Origin: Cyanidioschyzon merolae
Taxonomy: Eukaryota
Reading direction: 5' to 3' (one strand)
Assembly: GCA_000091205.1 (NCBI GenBank)
Contig: AP006495.2
Length of the DNA stretch: 64,000 nt
Both the position numbers and the translations under genes were made by a program. Of the stretch, positions 43,790 through 56,396 are shown piece after piece. Every line of letters begins with the position of its first letter. The stretch's first letter is position 1. The notes beneath the pieces are model-generated. The model had not been told where the DNA came from. It saw only the letters and a program-made list of their open reading frames with translations, and searched no databases.

Positions 43790-44215
43790 TCCGAATACAA
43801 TCATGCATAAACGTGTGAATTCTAGTATACATTCTCGTAAGAATACAATCATGCATAAACATGTGAATTCTAGGATACATTCTCGTACGAATACGATCAT
43901 GCATAAACGTGTGAATTCTAGTATACATTCTCGTAAGAATACGATCATCCATAAACGTGTGAATTCTAGTATACATTCTCGTACGAATACAATCATGCAT
44001 AAACGTGTGAATTCTAGTATACATTCTTGTACGAATACAATCATGCATAAACGTGTGAATTCTAGTATACATTCTCGTACGAATACGATCATGCATAAAC
44101 ATGTGAATTCGAGCATACATTCTCGTAAGAATATAATCATCCATAAACGTGTGAATTCGAGCATACATTCTCGTAAGAATATAATCATCCATAAACGTGT
44201 GAATTCGAGCATTCG
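43790..44215. repeat. 48-bp minisatellite, about 9 units, in a divergent promoter region
   Basis: The unit atgcataaacgtgtgaattctagtatacattctcgtaagaatacaatc is repeated. The period of 48 (16 codons) keeps every frame open, which explains the stacked ORFs 43698-44330(-), 43761-44363(+) and 43766-44242(-). Confidence 0.9.
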
Positions 44216-44295: not shown

Positions 44296-46143
44296 GTGCG
44301 CTGTTTTACGCTCCGTGGCCATCGTTGCACTATGACATTGGGAACGGGCTTTGTGTGTCCTAGTGTCCACGGTGCGGAGCGGGTGTCGGTCCAGTATGGA
44401 CGGGGTTTGCTGGTCGGGACAACTTGCCGGCTGTGGCAAGGGCACTGGCGTGGGATCGGTCAAAGAGCTCGTTTCAATTCAAACAAACTTTCGGACTTAA
44501 GGGACTTGGGACGTTTTCGGAGACGTTTTTTCGATGAATTTGGGACACCGCAACGAAGAACACTCGTAGCGAGCGCGACAGACAAGTCACCAGTGGTGCG
44601 TGTCGGTTGGGTGTACTCTCGCGGTGGGCAGACTCCACGTGCCTGGCTTGGTGTTCTTGCACTTTTTCTTGGAGATCGTGGCTTTCGCTGGTTATTCAGC
44701 GTACTGAGGATTCGCTTCCCAAGTTCTTTAGCGGGAATGTTGTTTCTGTTTCTGCTGTTACTTTTGACGGAGAACAGAGCGTGGCCAACTGGTTTGCCGC
44801 CATCGCCGAACCAAGTCGCAGCAGCGTCTGTCGAACCCGAACGCCTCTCCATTGCAGACAACATCGTCCTCCTAGTCTCGCCTGGGCTCGGACTGGTCAC
44901 CCGATGGTTGGCGATCTTCTTCGTGCCTAACTTGATCATGCTGCCTCATGCTGATGCGCCACATGGGTCCGCGCTACTTCGGCTTGTGCTCGCACTATGC
45001 GTCGGTCTTATCTTTAGTCTGGTAAGCTCCCTCATCTTTGTATCGATACTTGCGTGGGTGTCAGATCAGAGGCGCGGAGCCACGAAGAATCGACGACCCA
45101 CACACGACCAGCCCTTGGTAGAGAAAGTGCAGGACGGGAACACGAGACCGGAACGATCCTCCAAACTTTCTCGTCCAGAATCTCCTGGTCTGCGTACGGG
45201 GAATCCTGCCTCAAGCGGACCACGCTTTGCTTTAATCGGCTTGTGGGGTCTCGTCTGGATCGTCTCAGCTGTATGCTGGATTACGGGAGCGGGTGCGAGC
45301 GCCGACTTTCGAGCGCTTGCGCTTTGGTTGCATCAGCTTTCTTCGACGGTTGTCGGGTTCAGCTTGGGTCAACGCTTGCCGTCAAGATTTCAAAAAGTTC
45401 TACACCCGCTGGTGAGCTGCGTCGTTTTTACATACTTTTCGCTGTGGATGCTTGCGTGCGGTACCGGAAGCGCATGGAGCGAGCTCTTGCTTCTGTACAT
45501 GCGTCGACCCGGGAAGAAATGGCCACCGGCGGTGACCGGCAATCTCAGCGCGATTGCACGAAGCACTGTTTTTGCGCTAGGTGGCCCAGGGAATCTGCTC
45601 TTGAGCTTCCTGGGGCCTGCCGTGCTCTCATTCGCCTTCCAAATGTACCAGAGGCGGACGATCATTCGAGCGAACGGAATCCAAGTGATAGGCGGCTGCC
45701 TGATGGCGGCCTTTTTCGGGATGCTGGGCTCTGCAGCGCTTGCTCGTCTATTCTGTTTGCCGGCATCGTTGCGCTTGGTCTTTGCCCCGCGTTCGATTAC
45801 AGCACCGTTAGCGATAGGCATCGCAGACATTCTGGAGACAGATGCCACATTGACGGCCACCGTTGTAGTCATTACAGGCCTTCTTGGCGCTAATTTTGGG
45901 AGGCTCTGTCTCGATATTTTACGTCCCGTGTTACCGAGTGCTTCATCACCAGTCGCTCGTGGGCTTGCAATGGGCGCGTCTGCCCATGGCCTCGGAACGG
46001 CTGCCATTAGCGAGGAGCCGGATGCTTTTCCGTTTTCGGCCATTGCAATGGCCTTGGTCGGTACGCTTAGCGCGTTGATGGTGACGCTACCACCTTTTAG
46101 AGCGCTTCTGAGCATGGTTGCGGGCACGACTCTAGGCCGCTAG
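44296..46143 (+). CDS. LrgA/LrgB-family membrane transporter (fused LrgA-like plus LrgB-like halves, as in plastidial PLGG1)
   Basis: Polytopic protein. The C-terminal half shows the LrgB signature (RSITAPLAIGIADILETDATLTATVVVITGLLGANFG...ARGLAMGASAHGLGTAAISEEPDAFPFSAIAMALVGTL). The N-terminus overlaps the minisatellite; the true start is probably downstream. Confidence 0.75.
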   Translation: MRCFTLRGHRCTMTLGTGFVCPSVHGAERVSVQYGRGLLVGTTCRLWQGHWRGIGQRARFNSNKLSDLRDLGRFRRRFFDEFGTPQRRTLVASATDKSPVVRVGWVYSRGGQTPRAWLGVLALFLGDRGFRWLFSVLRIRFPSSLAGMLFLFLLLLLTENRAWPTGLPPSPNQVAAASVEPERLSIADNIVLLVSPGLGLVTRWLAIFFVPNLIMLPHADAPHGSALLRLVLALCVGLIFSLVSSLIFVSILAWVSDQRRGATKNRRPTHDQPLVEKVQDGNTRPERSSKLSRPESPGLRTGNPASSGPRFALIGLWGLVWIVSAVCWITGAGASADFRALALWLHQLSSTVVGFSLGQRLPSRFQKVLHPLVSCVVFTYFSLWMLACGTGSAWSELLLLYMRRPGKKWPPAVTGNLSAIARSTVFALGGPGNLLLSFLGPAVLSFAFQMYQRRTIIRANGIQVIGGCLMAAFFGMLGSAALARLFCLPASLRLVFAPRSITAPLAIGIADILETDATLTATVVVITGLLGANFGRLCLDILRPVLPSASSPVARGLAMGASAHGLGTAAISEEPDAFPFSAIAMALVGTLSALMVTLPPFRALLSMVAGTTLGR

Positions 46144-48651
46144 GTAAATCGGAGCGCATGTCTCCTTTTTTCTCCCGTGGATGCGATTTGGGTGCAGGGT
46201 AAGTTACATCTATACGCGTGATAGTTGCGAAGAGGTAATCTTCATGTGGCAGGCAGCTCCTCATAGACAACCACCTTTGGCGAGCGGCAAACCAAGCTAG
46301 AATTGCACATGATGCATTCAGTCAAGCTGCCTGGAGCAGAGCACCTCGTGGTGTCAGCCAAACGCACAGGACGGTTGGTGATTGTCCCATCGGCAATCAC
46401 AGCGGTGCATGCTTGACTTGTGCGTTGCTCGTGTGCGCTTGGTCGCTCGCCGACATGCTGCATCCTGCACTCCTCAATGTAATCCGAAAGCGAAAAAGTA
46501 AGGCCTGTGAAAGTCATGTGTTTTTCCACAAAACGTTCCATGAACTGCTCTAGCAGCTGTTCGAACGCGGAAGGTTCAAAAGTCTCGGGTCCGTTGGAGG
46601 CGAGACGAACGCACGCCCTTGTTTCCAACTCCGCAACTGGTCGCCTTCTCATTGCCCCTTTTTCATGCACGGCAAACGCACCAGACGCGGTTTTGGCTCT
46701 GGTGCGGTTCTCAGGGAATCTCCGCAAGTAATAAACCGCAATACCACGGTGCGCGATGGTTGTGGAAACACCTGCACGGCCCGGAGTCCCCAATTCCAGG
46801 AGCCCAGCTTCGCACACACTGCTGACGGATGGGAGCACGTCACCGCGGTCGGTGTTGAGGTTGCACCGCTGTCTCGCTCTGGCGATTTACAGCGGAAAGA
46901 AGCGACCTTGCCACGGATACACTGGGCCGGGCCGCTGCGAGCCGGGCATCTGTCTCTAGCGTAACTACGGGCATTGTCGCCTAGGCGCTACAGGTGAGCA
47001 ATGACCGGCGAAAACAACGATACGACATGCCTGTGTAGTTTTCGCAACCCGAATAACATCATTCGCGAAATGCTCGGGGGAATGTACCTGTTCAAAGAGA
47101 CGAGCGCAACCGTTTCACCTCAATGTGCATGCTCCCTCCGAATCGTTTCGCTGTGCAGGCACCCCATCCTCGCACAGGGACCTGACGCTATCGCATGCAT
47201 AGCCAGAGCATCGCAAGAGCGAACTTGTATGTATGCGGGAAAATCTGGCTTGTGGCCGATGTCCTCTGAACTGATGGTGCGGCATGATGAACCCTTGCCC
47301 GGATGCCGATAACAATTGCGCAATCAGGAATCCATCTGTTCGAGTCATGGATGCTACACCCTCACGCAAGGATTGCACGGATGGCGATACCGCGTGGCAA
47401 TACCGCATGGATAGTGGAATTAGAAGGTGCGTACGTGGCACGATCGCTGCTTTTCCAACCTGTGCAATTCGAAAGGAGCAATCCGTGATCATCGTCACCA
47501 AACAGCATGCAAGAAGAAGTATGGGTTACGGAACTTGGAAATAGAACCTGGGGCATGCTGCATGCTTCGCTGCGCGCCGAAATCAAGCGCCCAGTCAGGT
47601 ACACTGGCCTTTGGGTCAACGTTTCACCAAATAGGAAAAAGTGCAACAAAGCACCCGTGCGTTCCTGCAAGGGATCGCGCAGCACCCGCACTGCAGCGCA
47701 GCGATCCCCCCCGCCGGCGTCATCACCGTCGCTGCGGCATGCGCGCCGCCTCGACGCGGACGCGACGGTGATGCACATGACACATCGAGAGTGGAGCGCT
47801 GCGAAAGTTGCAACACATATCACAACCTCGGGAGCGCTCTTGAACACTGTTACCGCTGCCTTTGAAGTATGTTTGTCACGTCTTTCTTCGGATGCACTAG
47901 CAGTTTACTGGTCGACGGCGGGAAAAGTGCTTGTGCCCAATGCCCGTCGAGCCTGCAAACGCTTCGAATGTCGAAGCACCCGATCCCGAAGGCAACGAAA
48001 AAGCACGTGAAACGGCGGCCGCGAAAGTCCAGCCCAAGTGACAGAAACCGGACGCCTCCAAAGTACGCACTATATGACGTAGTGCCGCCTGAAGAGTATA
48101 CGATAGTTGCGGGTGGAGGGAGCATCCCACCAGAGTTCTTAGCGAAAATCGGTTCACGCAGCAAACGGCGACAAGAGTCTCGAAGCGAGAGGGACAGAAG
48201 CGCTGACGACGCTGATGACGAGACAATGGCGACCGCAACTGAACTGCTTCGTGCGGATGTTGACTAGTTGAAACGCCACGACGTCGAGTGTAGTCGGACG
48301 GTTTCTGCGTATCGAAAGACTTGTCGAGGTCGTAACCAGCTCGGTGTTACACGAAACAAGGCGGTATACATGCAGACTGACCTGTTTACAAGGAAAGCGA
48401 CACTGCAATGGTGAACGTGATGATTCCCTACAAGATGTTGCGTTCAGTCATGGTGCCTTACGGTGTGCGCTGTTCCCGCGCCTGTAGTGCCATGGGGGTA
48501 AACATAGCTTTTGCGCAGAAAGATTCGCGTCATTATGCCAGGAACACCAGCAGTGCTTTCGTTTTGCGAGTAAAACCACGCCGATGAGCCCGTGTCTATG
48601 TAAAACTAGGATACGCACGGTCTACAACGTGTATCACGACGCATAGCGCCG

Positions 48652-50655
48652 GTGCGGATGCCGCTCACGAAACGCTCTGCCAGGAAGTGGAATTACGGGC
48701 ACGTATCTGTAGCGAAAGAGCAGTCTCTGACATTAAACAAGCCAGGTTCTATTCGACATCGTACGTTTGATAAGCTAAGCGAGTTTCATCTGGGATGGTT
48801 ATCGAGGAGCTCACGGCAAACAAAGCAGAATGCCGCCCGACACCAGCCCGACGCCGCTGCGAAGCGAGATCGCGCCTGCGCAGCGGCGGACGTGGTCGCG
48901 TCGCCAAAACACATTGCGCGCCTCTGGCTGGTGGCTTGCAGAGCGCTCGTACCAGGGGAGGCGGGCAGTCACCCAATGGAGGAGTATCGGTTGCCAGACG
49001 TCAGTTTAGTTGTAGAGAGCATTCATTCTAATGAGAAAAAAACGCACGAAGTGGAACTCTATGCAAACTGGAAAGCTAGCACGGAGCCACCGAACGTGGG
49101 GCGCGTGCTGGTCGTGCCGTCAGCACGCTGCCCGTACCGCCTCTTCGATCCGAACATGTACCACACGGCGGTTTGTGCTACTCGTATCACGTTCGCCGAC
49201 GGGGTCAACGGAAAACTGTACTATCGTGGCTACGATGTCGAAGATCTGGTACGCCGAACAGCTGATCCACGCAAGCCTACCGCCACGTTCGAAGAAGTGG
49301 CTTTCCTGCTTATCAACGGCGAACTTCCGGACAGAGACGCGCTCTCGACATGGAAAGAGCTGCTTCTGTCTCACACGTTCCTTCACGAGGATATCCTAGC
49401 ACAGCTTCGAACGTTACGACACGATGCACCGCCCATGGGATGCCTCATCGCAGCGGTGAGCGCCCTGAGCACCTTCCACCCGGAAGCGAATCCCGCCCTC
49501 CGTGGTAGCCAGCTCTATCGCAACGATGAGAAAGCACGGAACAAACAAGTCTACCGCCTTCTGGGGAAAGTAGCAACGATCGCTGCGTGCGTCTGGCGTG
49601 TGCGAATCGGGCGCCAATTCATCCCGCCGCTTTCTGGCGAGCAGGTACGCCCCCGGGAGCGCACGGCCGCTCGAGCTCCAACGGATCGGCAACAAGAGCA
49701 GGAGCCCGGCGATGCCCCCATTGGCTACGTCTCTAACTTTTTAACCATGCTCGACGGATGCCAGCCGAATCCGGTCCTCGTAAATATCGTCGAACGAGCC
49801 TGGATCGTGCTCGCCGACGACGGCCTGAACTGTGCCGCTGGGGTGCTTCGCCACGTGGCGAGCTCTGGCGCGGATCCATACGTATGTGTAGCAACTGCCA
49901 TGGCAGCGATCTACGGACAGCGCATCAGCGGTGTCGGAATGGCGGTGATGCGGATGCTTACGGACATGCACGCGTACCTCAGGAGCACGGGTATGTTGGA
50001 TGAGACCCACGAGAAGCAGCTGTCCTGTCTGAATTCGTATTTGCAGGAGCGTTACATTCTCACAAAGCGACGGCTTCAGGGATTTGGGCACGTGAATTAT
50101 AAGAAATACGATCCTCGAGCGCGGGTATTACGCGAGCTGTGTCTCGAGGCAGAGGCTGCTGTCCAGGAGCCGGAGCCTTTGCTGCAAACAGCGCTTCTTC
50201 TAGAAGAGGTGGTCACGAATAACATCTGGTTCACTTCGCGAGGCGTTTGGCCGAACGTCGATCTATATTTGCCATTGCTTCTTCGTATTCTTGGTCTCCC
50301 GCTTGAATTCTACGCGGTTTTCGTAGCAGTACCACGGACGGCTGGCTGGATCGCTCACTGGCTTGAGCAACTTGACGATGCCGACGTACGCATCTATCGA
50401 CCGCGGCAGCTTTACTCGGGCCCGCCGCTGCGCCCCTACGTACCGATGGAGGATCGAGTCGAGGATGTGCTTTCGTCTTTCGCAGAGGACGGGCAGGATG
50501 CAGGCTCCGACCAAGATGATACCGCGCATGTGCTCCGGGATGGAAACGCACGACGGTATGGAGCAAACCGTCAATGCATGCTCAGAGGCCAGAATGTGCT
50601 CAATCGTATGGTTCGTTCTGTTTCCATCTACCGCAGAAGAAGCTATATTGAATGA
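48652..50655 (+). CDS. Citrate-synthase-family protein with long N- and C-terminal extensions, probably lacking two catalytic histidines
   Basis: Colinear with bacterial GltA-type citrate synthase (KLYYRGYDVEDL, GFGHVNYKKYDPRARVLRE, WPNVDLYLPLLLRILGLPLEFYAVFVAVPRTAGWIAHW). Where GltA has HADHEQNAS this protein has ADDGLNCAA. Where GltA has GPAHGGANE this protein has GQRISGVGM. So the equivalents of pig His238 and His274 are absent, while the His320, DPR and Asp375 equivalents are kept. Confidence 0.8.
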   Translation: MRMPLTKRSARKWNYGHVSVAKEQSLTLNKPGSIRHRTFDKLSEFHLGWLSRSSRQTKQNAARHQPDAAAKRDRACAAADVVASPKHIARLWLVACRALVPGEAGSHPMEEYRLPDVSLVVESIHSNEKKTHEVELYANWKASTEPPNVGRVLVVPSARCPYRLFDPNMYHTAVCATRITFADGVNGKLYYRGYDVEDLVRRTADPRKPTATFEEVAFLLINGELPDRDALSTWKELLLSHTFLHEDILAQLRTLRHDAPPMGCLIAAVSALSTFHPEANPALRGSQLYRNDEKARNKQVYRLLGKVATIAACVWRVRIGRQFIPPLSGEQVRPRERTAARAPTDRQQEQEPGDAPIGYVSNFLTMLDGCQPNPVLVNIVERAWIVLADDGLNCAAGVLRHVASSGADPYVCVATAMAAIYGQRISGVGMAVMRMLTDMHAYLRSTGMLDETHEKQLSCLNSYLQERYILTKRRLQGFGHVNYKKYDPRARVLRELCLEAEAAVQEPEPLLQTALLLEEVVTNNIWFTSRGVWPNVDLYLPLLLRILGLPLEFYAVFVAVPRTAGWIAHWLEQLDDADVRIYRPRQLYSGPPLRPYVPMEDRVEDVLSSFAEDGQDAGSDQDDTAHVLRDGNARRYGANRQCMLRGQNVLNRMVRSVSIYRRRSYIE

Positions 50656-51448: not shown

Positions 51449-51773
51449 TGCACTGGAGATGCCTATCAGTTGGCGATGCGGTCGCAAAAGAGCGACGCAG
51501 CTTAAACAATGTGCACTGGAGATGCCTATCAGTAGGCGATGCGGTCGCAAAAGAGCGACGCAGCTTAAACAATGTGCACTGGAGATGCCTATCAGTTGGC
51601 GATGCGGTCGCAAAAGAGCGACGCAGCTTAAACAATGTGCACTGGAGATGCCTATCAGTTGGCGATGCGGTCGCAAAAGAGCGACGCAGCTTAAACAATG
51701 TGCACTGGAGATGCCTATCAGTAGGCGATGCGGTCGCAAAAGAGTGACGCAGCTTAAACAATGTGCATTGGGG
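51449..51773. repeat. 63-bp minisatellite, about 5 units
   Basis: The unit tgcactggagatgcctatcagt(t/a)ggcgatgcggtcgcaaaagagcgacgcagcttaaacaatg is repeated. The period of 63 (21 codons) produces the phantom ORFs 51430-51747(+), 51414-51761(-) and 51263-51823(-). Confidence 0.9.
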
Positions 51774-54143: not shown

Positions 54144-56396
54144 ATGATGATGATTGCGAAGAGATATACGGCGAGCGTTTCGCCCCGCAGAAACATCCGT
54201 CCGACGCGTACAGCGCATTCAGCACACCGCACCGCGAAATTCGCCGCGCCAAGCCAAACCTTTGGCACGCGCGCGGAGCCACGCACGGCAGGAGATCTTG
54301 CAACGTCGAAACCGGTAGGACACGTGTCCAGCACCGTGGCGCCTGCGATGCGATCAGCCCATGCATGCCTCGTCTGGCAGGTGCCGCCGCGCTGCACCCC
54401 CAACGGATCACATGACGCGCGAGCACGTGCATCCATGCTGCACGAACGACGCAATGCATGCGTGCGCGCATGCATGCATTTCCACACACTCGAGATCAGC
54501 GCAATGCGATACGTCGATTGCTCTTCGACAGCGGCATCCGACTGTAGTTCTGGCTTCCGTACGTTCCTTCTGAGCGTCTTGCCTGACTACCTGTCCCACA
54601 GGGCGATGACCTCCTGGCTTTCTCTAGGGCGCTGGCGAGCGTCGACGGTGTCCTTCGTGAGCTCGGAGAGTCCGCCAAAGAGCCTGTCGTCGCACTGTCA
54701 AGATGTGACGAGGTATGCGGACGCTGAGCTCGTAGTGCATCAGCGTGTCGCGGATTCACCTGCCGTCGTGTGCGCACCGGACGGCAAGACTGACGGTGCA
54801 GACAGGGACTTGCTGACGTCCACAAAGACGCAGCGAGCGTTGTCTAGAACTAAGCTCAAGAGGGGCTGGGGAAAGCTGGCATCAGAGCAGGGTGACGCGC
54901 GTTCTCCGGACTCGTGTTTCCGGGATGTTGCGCGTACGCCGGACCTGCGCTGCACGGACGAGTCGATAACGTCGTTGCTGACACCGAGCCTGTGTACCTC
55001 AGAAGCTGACACGAGCGTTGCTGGTGGGCACGACTCCAGCCCCACTGACCGGACGGAGCAGACAGAGGATATCCGTGGCCTTCTGGAACGCTACTTGCAA
55101 GCCGAAGAACGCTACGGTTACACGTGGACGTTGCCGACGAACGAATGCTTCCGTTGGTGGTCTGCCGCCAGATGCAACGGGCGCCTTGCCAACGCCGAGG
55201 TTGACTCTGGAGAGAGACGTGCCGCCTTCACTCGGATTGCATGGCAGTTGCGGCTGCGACAAGTCGAAGCCATCTACCGGCTTGCACCATGTATGGATAC
55301 AGCGCTGGCGGCAGTTATGTTTTTCGATAGAGGAATGGTGCGGTTTGTTCAAATCTACACAGATGCGGAGCTGTATGGCGATAACGACGCACCAGGTATG
55401 CGTCTTTTGCGTGTGGGGATGCCCTTGGTAGCGCTGACGTCGCTCTGGATTGCGACCAAAATTCATGAACGCGAAGCAGGAAATGTTCAAGCATGGCTTC
55501 GCGAGTGGCCGGTTGACGAACATATGGGATCACCAGGGGTTCTGGGCGCAGATGCCGAGGCATCGATCTCAATGCCATTGATCAAAGCGGTCGAGTTGGT
55601 GCTTCTGGAAGCGCTTGGCTGGGACTTGGTACCCGTCAGCCCGCTGCACTTTGCGATGACTTTCGCGGTGCTCGGCTCGCAGCGGTGCACCGGCGTGTGG
55701 GCGCTAACGAGCAAGCTCTGTTCTCTGAGCATGCTTGAACAATCTATCGCTGGCCGTTATCCGCCTAGCGCGATTGGGCTCAGCTGCTTGCTTTCGGCGC
55801 TGCGGCTTCGAAGGCATCCAATGGCGGTGCAGCGAAACGATGCACGCTACCCGAGCGGGAATCTGGTAGCGGAATGGGCGCGGGGCGTTCTGGAATTCAC
55901 AACGCCGAACGTTGACTTGTTTTCCTCGATGGTTCAGGAGCTGGAAGCTATGCTGCACGAAGTCGTGTATCCAATACCCTCAGCAGGGTTCTCCCGCTCG
56001 CTATCACCATGTTCACTGGAGAACGGTAAGAGGGATTTACGGAGACGCAAAAGGCGCGCTGGTCAGGATCTGGAGCGCAAGTGTCGGAGACTCGCCAAGG
56101 ACCAGTCTAGCCCCTTGACGTCCTTTCATGCCCAAGATACGTGCCTATTCCAGCCACATGGTGCCGAGCAAGAATCTCCAGAGCTGTACAGCAGCTCCAT
56201 GGAGACAGTTTCGGAGGCCGCGTCGCCTCGGAATGTCACGAGGATGTCTCCCGATGCGGGGCGTCCTTGTGCACCCCGCGGGCACGCCAGTGCCTACCAG
56301 GTAGCCATGCAACGCGCGATCTTGGCGGAATCTGGGTGCTGCCTCGAGACATGTACACAGCAGGCGCCGTCTTCACGCCGGCTGCGCTTGCACTAG
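54144..56396 (+). CDS. Cyclin-like protein (cyclin-box fold) with long flanking low-complexity regions
   Basis: The central block MRLLRVGMPLVALTSLWIATKIHEREAGNVQAWLREWPV...LIKAVELVLLEALGWDLVPVSPLHFAMTF fits the cyclin N-domain pattern (L.IA.K.EE...ME..IL..L.W.L..TP..F). The true start is probably downstream of 54144. Confidence 0.55.
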   Translation: MMMIAKRYTASVSPRRNIRPTRTAHSAHRTAKFAAPSQTFGTRAEPRTAGDLATSKPVGHVSSTVAPAMRSAHACLVWQVPPRCTPNGSHDARARASMLHERRNACVRACMHFHTLEISAMRYVDCSSTAASDCSSGFRTFLLSVLPDYLSHRAMTSWLSLGRWRASTVSFVSSESPPKSLSSHCQDVTRYADAELVVHQRVADSPAVVCAPDGKTDGADRDLLTSTKTQRALSRTKLKRGWGKLASEQGDARSPDSCFRDVARTPDLRCTDESITSLLTPSLCTSEADTSVAGGHDSSPTDRTEQTEDIRGLLERYLQAEERYGYTWTLPTNECFRWWSAARCNGRLANAEVDSGERRAAFTRIAWQLRLRQVEAIYRLAPCMDTALAAVMFFDRGMVRFVQIYTDAELYGDNDAPGMRLLRVGMPLVALTSLWIATKIHEREAGNVQAWLREWPVDEHMGSPGVLGADAEASISMPLIKAVELVLLEALGWDLVPVSPLHFAMTFAVLGSQRCTGVWALTSKLCSLSMLEQSIAGRYPPSAIGLSCLLSALRLRRHPMAVQRNDARYPSGNLVAEWARGVLEFTTPNVDLFSSMVQELEAMLHEVVYPIPSAGFSRSLSPCSLENGKRDLRRRKRRAGQDLERKCRRLAKDQSSPLTSFHAQDTCLFQPHGAEQESPELYSSSMETVSEAASPRNVTRMSPDAGRPCAPRGHASAYQVAMQRAILAESGCCLETCTQQAPSSRRLRLH

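What the first reader, a model, noticed from the sequence alone, without database searches (positions are those of the whole stretch)
48652..50655. Citrate-synthase paralog that appears to have lost two catalytic histidines and gained long terminal extensions
The protein is colinear with GltA-type citrate synthase through the core. Where the oxaloacetate-binding HADHE and the catalytic GPAHGGANE segments should be, it has ADDGLNCAA and GQRISGVGM. The His320, DPR and Asp375 equivalents are retained. It also carries an N-terminal extension of about 180 aa and an acidic C-terminal tail (667 aa in total, against about 430-470 for canonical enzymes). This looks like a pseudo-enzyme or a neofunctionalised citrate-synthase-fold protein, not the housekeeping TCA or glyoxylate enzyme. 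That enzyme should be encoded elsewhere in the genome.
Basis: partly seen in the sequence, partly recalled or inferred. Interest (0 to 1): 0.55.

Follow-up and report, generated by a model that had tools for sequence, protein, structure and literature searches.

The report
Red-algal citrate-synthase paralog lacking catalytic histidines

Summary
The core observation holds. The ORF is a real citrate-synthase-fold protein (Pfam PF00285, E=3e-92). Profile alignments place Leu, Asp and Ile where pig-numbered His235, His238 and catalytic His274 should be. His320, Asp375 and Arg329/401/421 are kept.

The window is Cyanidioschyzon merolae 10D and the gene is CMM068C. The substitutions are not private decay. 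About 20 red-algal sequences (Cyanidioschyzon, Cyanidiococcus, Cyanidium, Galdieria, Compsopogon, Porphyridium and unnamed assemblies) share new, nearly invariant motifs: LADDG for HA[DE]HE, and G-x-RISGVG for GP[LR]HGGAN. The clade is monophyletic (100% bootstrap) and under purifying selection (dN/dS about 0.07).

All 12 "conserved but different" positions lie in three active-site segments.

The claimed 180-aa N-terminal extension is mostly not real. Orthologs start at MExYRLP, which is window 48976 and gives 559 aa. The upstream 108 codons are unconserved. Part of the C-terminal tail is ancestral to eukaryotic non-mitochondrial citrate synthases.

The literature reports four CS genes in C. 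merolae, one of them a confirmed mitochondrial enzyme.

My best reading is a selected, catalytically disabled or re-purposed CS paralog that still binds ligand and has no PTS1 or PTS2. I found no prior description. Its function is untested.

The parts
48976..50655 (+). Most probable true coding sequence of CMM068C (559 aa plus TGA), starting at MEEYRLP
   Evidence: Orthologs in Cyanidiococcus (L001), Cyanidium (L002) and a hot-spring metagenome (L003) start at the homologous Met. They have no upstream in-frame ATG and no upstream similarity. Coordinates.
48652..48975 (+). Upstream open frame (GTG at 48652; ATG at 48658, used by the 665-aa NCBI model). Probably 5' UTR rather than protein. A C. 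merolae-specific basic presequence is not excluded.
   Evidence: There is no homolog coverage of this part (83% query coverage in orthologs). It is not conserved in L001/L002. Two out-of-frame ATGs lie at 48795 and 48830. Composition is K+R 19 and D+E 7 of 106 aa. GC by codon position is inconclusive.
48976..49137 (+). N-terminal ~54 residues, equivalent to the small beta-sheet N-terminal domain of type II/non-mitochondrial citrate synthases. No PTS2 is present.
   Evidence: PDB alignments begin at chain residues 39-57. The AF2 model predicts strands at residues 6-18 and 21-31. Canonical eukaryotic relatives carry R[LI]x5[HQ][LI] N-terminal signals; the red clade does not.
49162..50406 (+). 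Citrate synthase domain (PF00285)
   Evidence: E=3.2e-92, ORF residues 171-585. Foldseek top hits are all citrate synthases, with TM 0.80 to 9x0i.
49807..49839 (+). Motif VLADDGLNCAA replacing (I/F)LHA[DE]HExNCST: His235->Leu279, His238->Asp282, Glu239->Gly283, Ser244->Ala287. Asn242 is kept (Asn285).
49912..49944 (+). Motif YGQRISGVGMA replacing YGP[LR]HGGANEA: catalytic His274->Ile317, Gly275->Ser318, Ala277->Val320, Asn278->Gly321
   Evidence: The published qPCR forward primer for CMM068C lies here.
50080..50121 (+). GFGHVNYKKYDPRA: the His320 equivalent (His372), the Lys at the Arg324 CoA-phosphate position (Lys376) and the Arg329 equivalent (Arg381) are all retained
50236..50277 (+). SRGVWPNVDLYLPL: the Asp375 equivalent (Asp429) and the Arg at the Lys368 position (Arg422) are retained. 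Neighbours are changed and conserved (Leu->Val424, Phe->Leu430, Ser->Leu432).
50329..50415 (+). VPRTAGW ... YRPRQLY: the Arg401 and Arg421 equivalents (Arg454, Arg476) are retained
49630..49725 (+). About 30-aa insertion specific to Cyanidioschyzon and Cyanidiococcus (shorter in Cyanidium), predicted disordered
   Evidence: Alignment A1. pLDDT <50 for residues 225-247. It splits the HMMER match into two stretches.
50416..50652 (+). C-terminal tail: a variable acidic linker (50449-50529), the ancestral N-x-RR-x-L motif (GANRQCML, 50560-50583) and the Cyanidioschyzon/Cyanidiococcus/Cyanidium-specific basic motif NRMVRSVSIYRRR (50602-50640). It ends -YIE, which is not a PTS1.
   Evidence: Low pLDDT.

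Best explanation
CMM068C is the C. merolae member of an ancient red-algal offshoot of the eukaryotic non-mitochondrial (peroxisomal/glyoxysomal-type, bacterial type II-like) citrate synthase family.

Shown:
- It has the CS fold.
- The half of the active site that activates acetyl-CoA and one oxaloacetate contact have been rebuilt. The changes are His274->Ile, Gly275->Ser, Ala277->Val, Asn278->Gly, His238->Asp, His235->Leu, Glu239->Gly and Ser244->Ala, plus three hydrophobic swaps around Asp375.
- The di/tricarboxylate-binding arginines (329/401/421), His320, Asp375 and the basic residues at the CoA-phosphate positions are retained.
- The new residues are nearly invariant across red-algal classes, and the gene is under strong purifying selection.

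Inferred:
- Without the histidine that polarises the thioester carbonyl, and with an acidic residue in the oxaloacetate site, it no longer makes citrate by the canonical Claisen mechanism at a useful rate.
- The pocket is still used to bind a carboxylate ligand and probably a CoA ester.
- My single best guess is a ligand-binding, catalytically disabled paralog (pseudoenzyme). It would act as a metabolite sensor or regulator, or as a partner subunit of the canonical CS paralogs. CS active sites are completed by Arg421 from the neighbouring subunit, and that residue is kept.
- It probably acts outside the peroxisome matrix, since it has neither PTS1 nor PTS2.
- A changed catalytic activity in the same pocket is nearly as likely; see the rivals.
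For: - Identity: P0001 is 100% identical, 'citrate synthase [C. merolae 10D]'. Published CMM068C qPCR primers match at 49923 and 49966.
- Fold.
- Residue states: phmmer/PDB alignment and hmmalign of 358 sequences. The red clade reads L-D-N-I-H-K-R-R-D-R-R where canonical reads H-H-N-H-H-K-R-R-D-R-R.
- Clade-wide conservation of the new motifs.
- Concentration of change: 66 of 94 canonical-conserved columns are kept, and all 12 conserved-but-different columns fall in three active-site segments.
- No new conserved His, Lys or Tyr appears among these. Only Ser318 and Asp282 are polar gains.
- Monophyly is 100% bootstrap, nested within eukaryotic non-mitochondrial CS (98%).
- dN/dS is 0.07 between two Cyanidiococcus-like orthologs. 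dN is 0.17-0.30 with saturated dS in the other pairs.
- Synteny LrgB - DUF5323 - CS-like is conserved.
- The gene is below the NCBIfam equivalog cut-offs.
- No PTS. C. merolae lacks PEX7/PTS2 (PMC7710942).
- The role of His274, His320 and Asp375 as the catalytic triad, and of His238 and Arg329/401/421' in oxaloacetate binding, is established knowledge of pig and E. coli CS. I did not test it here.
Against: - No activity, binding or localisation data exist for this protein.
- Retention of the catalytic base Asp375 and of His320 in every clade member is more than a pure binder would need. This favours residual or altered catalysis.
- Ser318, next to the lost His, could in principle donate the missing hydrogen bond.
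- PMC4586181 calls CS-1 to CS-3 'peroxisomal', citing Moriyama 2014, which I could not read. A tested peroxisomal localisation would contradict my cytosolic inference.
- I could not retrieve the CMA040C or CMJ293C sequences. The heteromer idea is therefore untested, and their canonical status rests only on the primer-encoded peptides RALDI(L) and LNCSTA.
- The AF2 model is of moderate quality (pLDDT 69.5, 14-sequence alignment). Pocket geometry could not be inspected.
Confidence: 0.45

Rival explanations
1. It is a neofunctionalised enzyme. The rebuilt, more hydrophobic acyl side of the pocket and the His238->Asp change alter substrate choice or chemistry. Possibilities include a different 2-oxo acid or acyl-CoA, or a lyase, thioesterase or tautomerase-type partial reaction. 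Asp429 (Asp375) and His372 (His320) would still act as the catalytic pair.
For: - Asp375, His320, the Arg triad and the CoA-phosphate contacts are invariant in all clade members, including the most divergent one, Porphyridium.
- The replacement residues are themselves nearly invariant over very deep divergences. This is typical of a specific new requirement rather than relaxed constraint.
- The Gly275->Ser gain sits adjacent to the lost His.
Against: - To my knowledge, no active member of the CS superfamily lacking the His274 equivalent is known.
- The substitutions are mostly hydrophobic fillers (Ile, Val, Leu, Ala).
- No pathway context is available from a eukaryotic gene neighbourhood.
- No candidate substrate is identified.
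Confidence: 0.33
2. It is still a bona fide citrate synthase. It would use a non-canonical way of stabilising the acetyl-CoA enolate, such as Ser318, a backbone amide or water.
For: - Overall colinearity with CS, and 66 of 94 conserved columns retained.
- It is annotated and used as 'citrate synthase' in C. merolae studies.
- I could not confirm canonical peroxisomal-type CS in red algae other than C. merolae from the hit lists.
Against: - Three active-site histidines are lost, including the strictly conserved His274. All 279 canonical sequences aligned have His at that position.
- From established mutagenesis of pig CS, which I recall and did not test here, His274 replacement lowers kcat by about three orders of magnitude.
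- An Asp now sits in the oxaloacetate carboxylate site.
- C. merolae has other CS genes, including the mitochondrial CS-4.
Confidence: 0.15
3. It is a decaying pseudogene, or a misalignment or annotation artefact.
For: The 5' part of the public gene model does look like an artefact.
Against: - The reading frame is intact in four Cyanidiophyceae genomes or metagenomes, with conserved synteny.
- dN/dS is about 0.07.
- The motifs are conserved across red-algal classes.
- Independent alignment methods agree on the residue states.
- The transcript has been measured by qRT-PCR in PMC4586181.
Confidence: 0.02

Closest known systems
Eukaryotic non-mitochondrial (peroxisomal/glyoxysomal) citrate synthase, e.g. 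Arabidopsis CSY3 (PDB 9x0i) and pineapple CS (8qzp)
   Same: It is the best sequence and fold match: E=4.5e-85, 34-36% identity and TM 0.80. It has the same domain order, including the N-terminal beta domain and the C-terminal N-x-[KR]RR motif. The red clade nests inside this eukaryotic group (98% bootstrap).
   Different: - His235, His238 and His274 are replaced, and the whole GP[LR]HGGAN loop is rewritten to G-x-RISGVG.
- It has no PTS2 or PTS1.
- It has two lineage-specific insertions and an extra basic C-terminal motif.
Bacterial type II (hexameric, GltA-type) citrate synthase, e.g. Acetobacter aceti 2h12 and E. coli 1nxe
   Same: About 30% identity over the full length, the same fold and an N-terminal domain of the same length.
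   Different: It is below the NCBIfam equivalog cut-offs: NF004126 287 against 505 bits, and TIGR01798 260 against 485. The catalytic His is missing. NADH regulation was not examined.
Chytrid/Blastocladiomycota 'citrate synthase-like proteins' (e.g. Batrachochytrium BATDEDRAFT_35262, P0132)
   Same: This is a second clade of non-mitochondrial-type CS homologs that lost His235 (->Leu), Glu239 (->Gly) and His274, but kept His320, Asp375 and the Arg triad. In NJ trees it groups with the red clade at 78-90% bootstrap.
   Different: - His274->Lys with a 3-residue deletion, and His238 is often kept.
- The C-terminal tails are long and look like coiled coils (550-730 aa).
- Canonical paralogs exist in the same genomes.
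- The grouping is unstable when either clade is removed, so long-branch attraction is possible.
Citryl-CoA lyase / ATP-citrate lyase CS-homology module
   Same: They belong to the same superfamily. The query gives weak NCBIfam hits.
   Different: Scores are far below the cut-offs (72 against 245 bits). The query is full-length CS-like with both domains. It is not a member.

Membership tests
Citrate synthase superfamily (Pfam PF00285, CS fold) | Domain match above the gathering score, and the all-helical two-domain CS fold | tested here: met
   309.8 bits against a cut-off of 27. All Foldseek top hits are CS, with TM 0.80.
Catalytically competent citrate (Si)-synthase, EC 2.3.3.1/2.3.3.16 | Catalytic triad His274 / His320 / Asp375 (pig numbering) | tested here: not met
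   The residues are Ile317 / His372 / Asp429. His274 is present in all 279 canonical sequences aligned.
Catalytically competent citrate (Si)-synthase, EC 2.3.3.1/2.3.3.16 | Oxaloacetate site: His238 plus Arg329, Arg401 and Arg421' | tested here: not met
   The three Arg are retained, but His238->Asp282, with His235->Leu and Glu239->Gly.
Catalytically competent citrate (Si)-synthase, EC 2.3.3.1/2.3.3.16 | NCBIfam equivalog score cut-off | tested here: not met
   NF004126 287 against 505 bits, and TIGR01798 260 against 485. A canonical tomato glyoxysomal CS scores 500 and 462, just under these bacterial cut-offs.
Catalytically competent citrate (Si)-synthase, EC 2.3.3.1/2.3.3.16 | Measured condensation of acetyl-CoA and oxaloacetate | not testable with these tools
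   This needs recombinant protein.
Eukaryotic peroxisomal/glyoxysomal citrate synthase | Phylogenetic position within the eukaryotic non-mitochondrial CS group | tested here: met
   NJ tree: all eukaryotic sequences including the red clade group at 98% bootstrap. The method is simple (distance/NJ).
Eukaryotic peroxisomal/glyoxysomal citrate synthase | Peroxisomal targeting signal (N-terminal PTS2 R[LI]x5[HQ][LA], or C-terminal PTS1) | tested here: not met
   Canonical relatives show RLAVLSAHL-type signals. No red-clade member does. The C-termini are -YIE, -KFG, -NKV and so on. C. merolae lacks PEX7 (PMC7710942).
Pseudoenzyme (a conserved homolog lacking key catalytic residues) | Loss of residues essential for the family's reaction, together with evidence of purifying selection | tested here: met
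   Residue loss. dN/dS 0.07 and clade-wide conservation.
Pseudoenzyme (a conserved homolog lacking key catalytic residues) | Demonstrated absence of catalytic activity | not testable with these tools
   No biochemical data were found.
Citryl-CoA lyase | NCBIfam CCL model above its cut-off | tested here: not met
   The best score is 72 bits against 245.

The most novel reading that the evidence does not exclude
The red-algal His-less clade and the chytrid/Blastocladiomycota 'CS-like' clade descend from one ancient eukaryotic paralog. That paralog abandoned citrate synthesis early but kept Asp375, His320 and the Arg triad for a different, still unknown reaction or metabolite-sensing role. This would be a new functional family on the citrate synthase fold, currently hidden under the 'citrate synthase' annotation.
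Probability: 0.2. Interest if true: 0.75.

Novelty: new variant of a known kind. Interest (0 to 1): 0.5.

Why it matters
C. merolae is a model red alga. Its carbon-metabolism maps count CMM068C among three 'peroxisomal citrate synthases' (PMC4586181). If this protein cannot make citrate and is not peroxisomal, those maps and the flux or expression interpretations built on them need correcting, and the same applies to Galdieria and other red algae.

More generally, a CS-fold protein has kept the base Asp, His320 and the carboxylate-binding arginines for very long evolutionary times while consistently replacing the enolising histidine. That makes it a clean, testable case of either a metabolite-sensing pseudoenzyme or new chemistry on a textbook enzyme scaffold. 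A parallel case exists in zoosporic fungi.

The work also flags a probable 5' over-extension of the public gene model. This matters for any tagging or expression construct.

Tried and rejected
1. My first guess from sequence composition was a trypanosomatid genome. The 100% match to C. merolae ruled that out.
2. I looked for canonical C. merolae paralog sequences (CMA040C, CMJ293C) in all three homolog searches and in the exhaustive representative search. I did not find them. Only primer-encoded peptides were available as indirect evidence.
3. Profile searches did not list some sequences that were in the query alignment itself. Examples are P0011/P0012 and P0025. Absence of Florideophyceae or Bangiophyceae members from the lists therefore cannot be read as true absence.
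4. P0121 (963 aa) and P0008-10/P0359-364 (about 870 aa) scored high only because they are tandem double citrate synthases. They are not clade members.
5. GC content by codon position could not settle whether the 5' extension is coding.
6. dN/dS for C. merolae against its orthologs could not be computed because synonymous sites are saturated.
7. Literature searches for CMM068C, for pseudoenzyme citrate synthase, and for inactive citrate synthase-like proteins found nothing relevant. Moriyama et al. 2014 (Planta) is not held.
8. The RED+chytrid grouping is not robust to taxon removal, so I do not claim common origin.
9. The AF2 output gives no coordinates, so the pocket could not be inspected.
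Full report
**What is in the sequence**

The window has the ORF 48652..50655 on the + strand. Its product matches Pfam Citrate_synt (PF00285) with E=3.2e-92 over ORF residues 171-585. It is 100% identical to the NCBI protein 'citrate synthase [Cyanidioschyzon merolae strain 10D]' (665 aa, on an 866,983-bp contig). The window is therefore nuclear DNA of this nearly intron-less red alga, not a bacterium.

The qRT-PCR primers published for locus CMM068C (PMC4586181, Table S1) match once each, at 49923-49941 and 49966-49984. That identifies the gene. The forward primer encodes the unusual ISGVGM stretch.

**Check of the residue claim**

Two independent alignments agree. One is phmmer against all PDB chains, where the best hits are Arabidopsis glyoxysomal CSY3 (9x0i, E=4.5e-85), pineapple non-mitochondrial CS (8qzp), and then bacterial type II enzymes. 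The other is hmmalign of 358 family members to a family HMM.

In pig numbering the protein has:
- His235->Leu, His238->Asp, Glu239->Gly and His274->Ile.
- Asn242, His320, the basic residue at position 324, Arg329, the basic residue at 368, Asp375, Arg401 and Arg421 all retained.

The correspondence is LHAEHE to VLADDG, not HADHE to ADDGL. The conclusion survives and is in fact stronger, because three histidines are lost.

In the 559-aa protein these residues are Leu279, Asp282, Gly283, Ile317, His372, Arg381, Asp429, Arg454 and Arg476.

An AlphaFold2 model built from a 14-sequence alignment (mean pLDDT 69.5) has the CS fold. It superposes best on CSY3 with TM 0.80.

**Not a private accident**

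Aligning the 120 best database hits, and later hits, shows the same replacements in a set of about 20 sequences. These come from Cyanidioschyzon, Cyanidiococcus, Cyanidium, Galdieria (three species), Compsopogon, Porphyridium and several unnamed assemblies.

They share new motifs:
- L-[AIS]-D-D-G-[LM]-N-C-A in place of H-A-[DE]-H-E-x-N-C-S.
- Y-G-x-R-I-S-G-V-G in place of Y-G-P-[LR]-H-G-G-A-N.
- GFGH[VLI]NYK in place of GFGHR[VI]YK.
- PNVDLYL in place of PNVDFYSG.

Porphyridium is the most degenerate member. All other protist, plant, fungal and bacterial hits keep the canonical residues.

In a neighbour-joining tree on 406 well-aligned columns:
- The clade is monophyletic in 100 of 100 bootstraps.
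- It sits on a long stem.
- It lies inside the eukaryotic non-mitochondrial CS group (98%).

Orthology within Cyanidiophyceae is backed by conserved gene order, LrgB-family transporter - DUF5323 - CS-like.

Selection is purifying. dN/dS is 0.07 between Cyanidiococcus yangmingshanensis and a hot-spring metagenome relative. In the other pairs dN is 0.17-0.30 while synonymous sites are saturated.

**Where the change is**

Of 94 columns that are at least 90% conserved in 279 canonical sequences, the red clade keeps 66.

The 12 columns that are conserved in both groups but with different residues all lie in three active-site segments:
- His235Leu, His238Asp, Glu239Gly and Ser244Ala.
- His274Ile, Gly275Ser, Ala277Val and Asn278Gly.
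- Four hydrophobic exchanges around Asp375: Ala->Val413, Leu->Val424, Phe->Leu430 and Ser->Leu432.

No new His, Lys or Tyr appears. The only polar gains are Ser318 and Asp282.

From established CS enzymology, which I did not test here:
- His274 hydrogen-bonds the thioester carbonyl and stabilises the acetyl-CoA enol(ate).
- Asp375 is the base and His320 protonates the oxaloacetate carbonyl.
- His238 and Arg329/401/421' bind the substrate carboxylates.

So the acetyl-CoA-activating side and one oxaloacetate contact are rebuilt, and the rest of the pocket is preserved.

**Length and termini**

The ORF list uses bacterial start rules. The leading GTG is irrelevant in a eukaryote, and the public model starts at the ATG at 48658.

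Evidence on the true start:
- All four fetched orthologs start at MExYRLP, which is homologous to window 48976.
- In Cyanidiococcus and Cyanidium there is no in-frame ATG upstream.
- The upstream translations are unrelated between species.

The most likely protein is therefore 559 aa. The '180-aa extension' falls into two parts. About 108 codons are probable 5' UTR. About 55 residues correspond to the ordinary N-terminal beta domain of type II CS. PDB alignments start at chain residue 39-57, and the model predicts a beta hairpin.

I cannot exclude that C. merolae alone uses the upstream ATG. The 106 residues are basic (K+R 19, D+E 7) and could mimic a presequence. Only transcript 5'-end data can decide this.

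The C-terminal tail is 79 residues after RPRQLY and has three parts:
- An acidic, poorly conserved linker.
- An N-x-RR-x-L motif that canonical eukaryotic non-mitochondrial CSs also have (plants SNATKRRLAG, protists S-x-S-KRR).
- A basic NRMVRSVSIYRRR motif found only in Cyanidioschyzon, Cyanidiococcus and Cyanidium.

Two internal insertions account for the remaining extra length. One, at residues 219-250, has low pLDDT. The other lies in the 332-363 segment.

Canonical eukaryotic relatives carry N-terminal PTS2-like signals (RLAVLSAHL and similar). No red-clade member has a PTS2, and none ends in a PTS1. C. merolae is reported to lack PEX7 and PTS2 cargo altogether (PMC7710942).

**Other CS genes**

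The literature states that C. merolae has four CS genes:
- CS-4 is mitochondrial, with confirmed localisation, and is the regulated TCA enzyme (PMC6606799).
- CS-1 to CS-3 are called 'peroxisomal' and 'believed' to handle beta-oxidation acetyl-CoA (PMC4586181).

CMA040C and CMJ293C are the other loci annotated as citrate synthase in an expression table. I could not retrieve their sequences. The CMJ293C primers encode RALDI(L) and LNCSTA, which are the flanks of a canonical HA[DE]HE motif.

**Interpretation**

The data exclude a decaying pseudogene and a misalignment. They make canonical citrate synthesis unlikely. They show a pocket that is still under strong constraint.

My estimates for what the pocket now does:
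- About 45%: a catalytically disabled, ligand-binding paralog. It would act as a sensor or regulator, or as a partner subunit for the canonical paralogs, and probably not in the peroxisome matrix.
- About 33%: an enzyme with altered substrates or chemistry that still uses Asp429 and His372.
- About 15%: a citrate synthase with an unorthodox enolate-stabilising group.

Invariant retention of Asp375 and His320 is the main argument for residual or new catalysis. The arguments for a non-catalytic role are that I know of no active CS-superfamily member without the His274 equivalent, and that the replacements are hydrophobic.

**Comparison and novelty**

By family membership it belongs to the CS superfamily, specifically the eukaryotic non-mitochondrial branch. 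It fails the defining catalytic-residue tests for a working citrate synthase. It also falls below the NCBIfam equivalog cut-offs (287 against 505 bits).

A second His274-less clade exists in chytrid and blastocladiomycete fungi. It shows His235Leu, Glu239Gly and His274Lys with a 3-residue deletion, and has long C-terminal tails. It occurs alongside canonical paralogs in the same genomes. It groups with the red clade in NJ trees at 78-90%, but each clade's placement is unstable when the other is removed. Common origin is therefore possible but unproven.

I found no paper that mentions CMM068C in its text or describes a histidine-less citrate synthase clade. I rate it a new variant of a known kind, of moderate interest. 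It has a clear and cheap experimental path to a decisive answer.

Noticed in passing
Database proteins P0058, P0073, P0081, P0082, P0089, P0107, P0131-P0135, P0140, P0155, P0158 (not in the window): Chytrid and Blastocladiomycota 'citrate synthase-like proteins' (550-730 aa) form a second clade. It lacks His235 (Leu), Glu239 (Gly) and His274 (Lys, with a 3-residue deletion), but keeps His320, Asp375 and the Arg triad. They carry long C-terminal tails that look like coiled coils. The same genomes also encode canonical copies, e.g. B. dendrobatidis P0370 against P0132 and Powellomyces P0373 against P0107.
   Followed up: partly
window 48652-48975: The public gene model for CMM068C (665 aa, ATG at 48658) is probably 106 codons too long at its 5' end. 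Orthologs start at the Met homologous to 48976 and have no upstream in-frame ATG.
   Followed up: yes
Database proteins P0008-P0010, P0359-P0364 (bacterial, one named Caldilineales MAG) and P0121 (eukaryotic transcriptome, 963 aa): These are tandem fusions of two complete citrate synthase units in one polypeptide. In the bacterial ones examined (P0008-P0010) the second unit has altered motifs (HADHGQS, GPKHGGATS), which suggests a degenerate or regulatory second half.
   Followed up: no
Database proteins P0223, P0253, P0228, P0266 (from the exhaustive representative search): These are further isolated CS homologs with degenerate active sites. P0223, for example, has Leu/Gln/Gly/Ser/Tyr at the His235/His238/His274/His320/Asp375 positions. 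Loss of CS catalytic residues seems to have happened repeatedly in the non-mitochondrial branch.
   Followed up: no
window 43793-44206 and 51449-51771: There are two intergenic minisatellites: a 48-bp unit x 8.6 copies (93% matches) just upstream of the LrgB-family ORF, and a 63-bp unit x 5.1 copies (98% matches) downstream of the CS-like gene. They create long spurious ORFs in several frames.
   Followed up: partly
window 44296-46143, 47869-48267, 54144-56396; loci L001, L002, L003: The gene order LrgB-family membrane protein - DUF5323 small protein - CS-like gene is conserved in Cyanidioschyzon, Cyanidiococcus and Cyanidium. A weak cyclin-N-domain protein lies downstream in the window. In Cyanidium a protein with only a faint Cyclin_N hit lies elsewhere in the locus.
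   Followed up: partly
(tool behaviour): Profile searches with the search for homologous proteins did not return some sequences that were rows of the query alignment: P0011, P0012 and P0021, and P0025. Hit lists are therefore incomplete, and taxonomic absence cannot be inferred from them.
   Followed up: no
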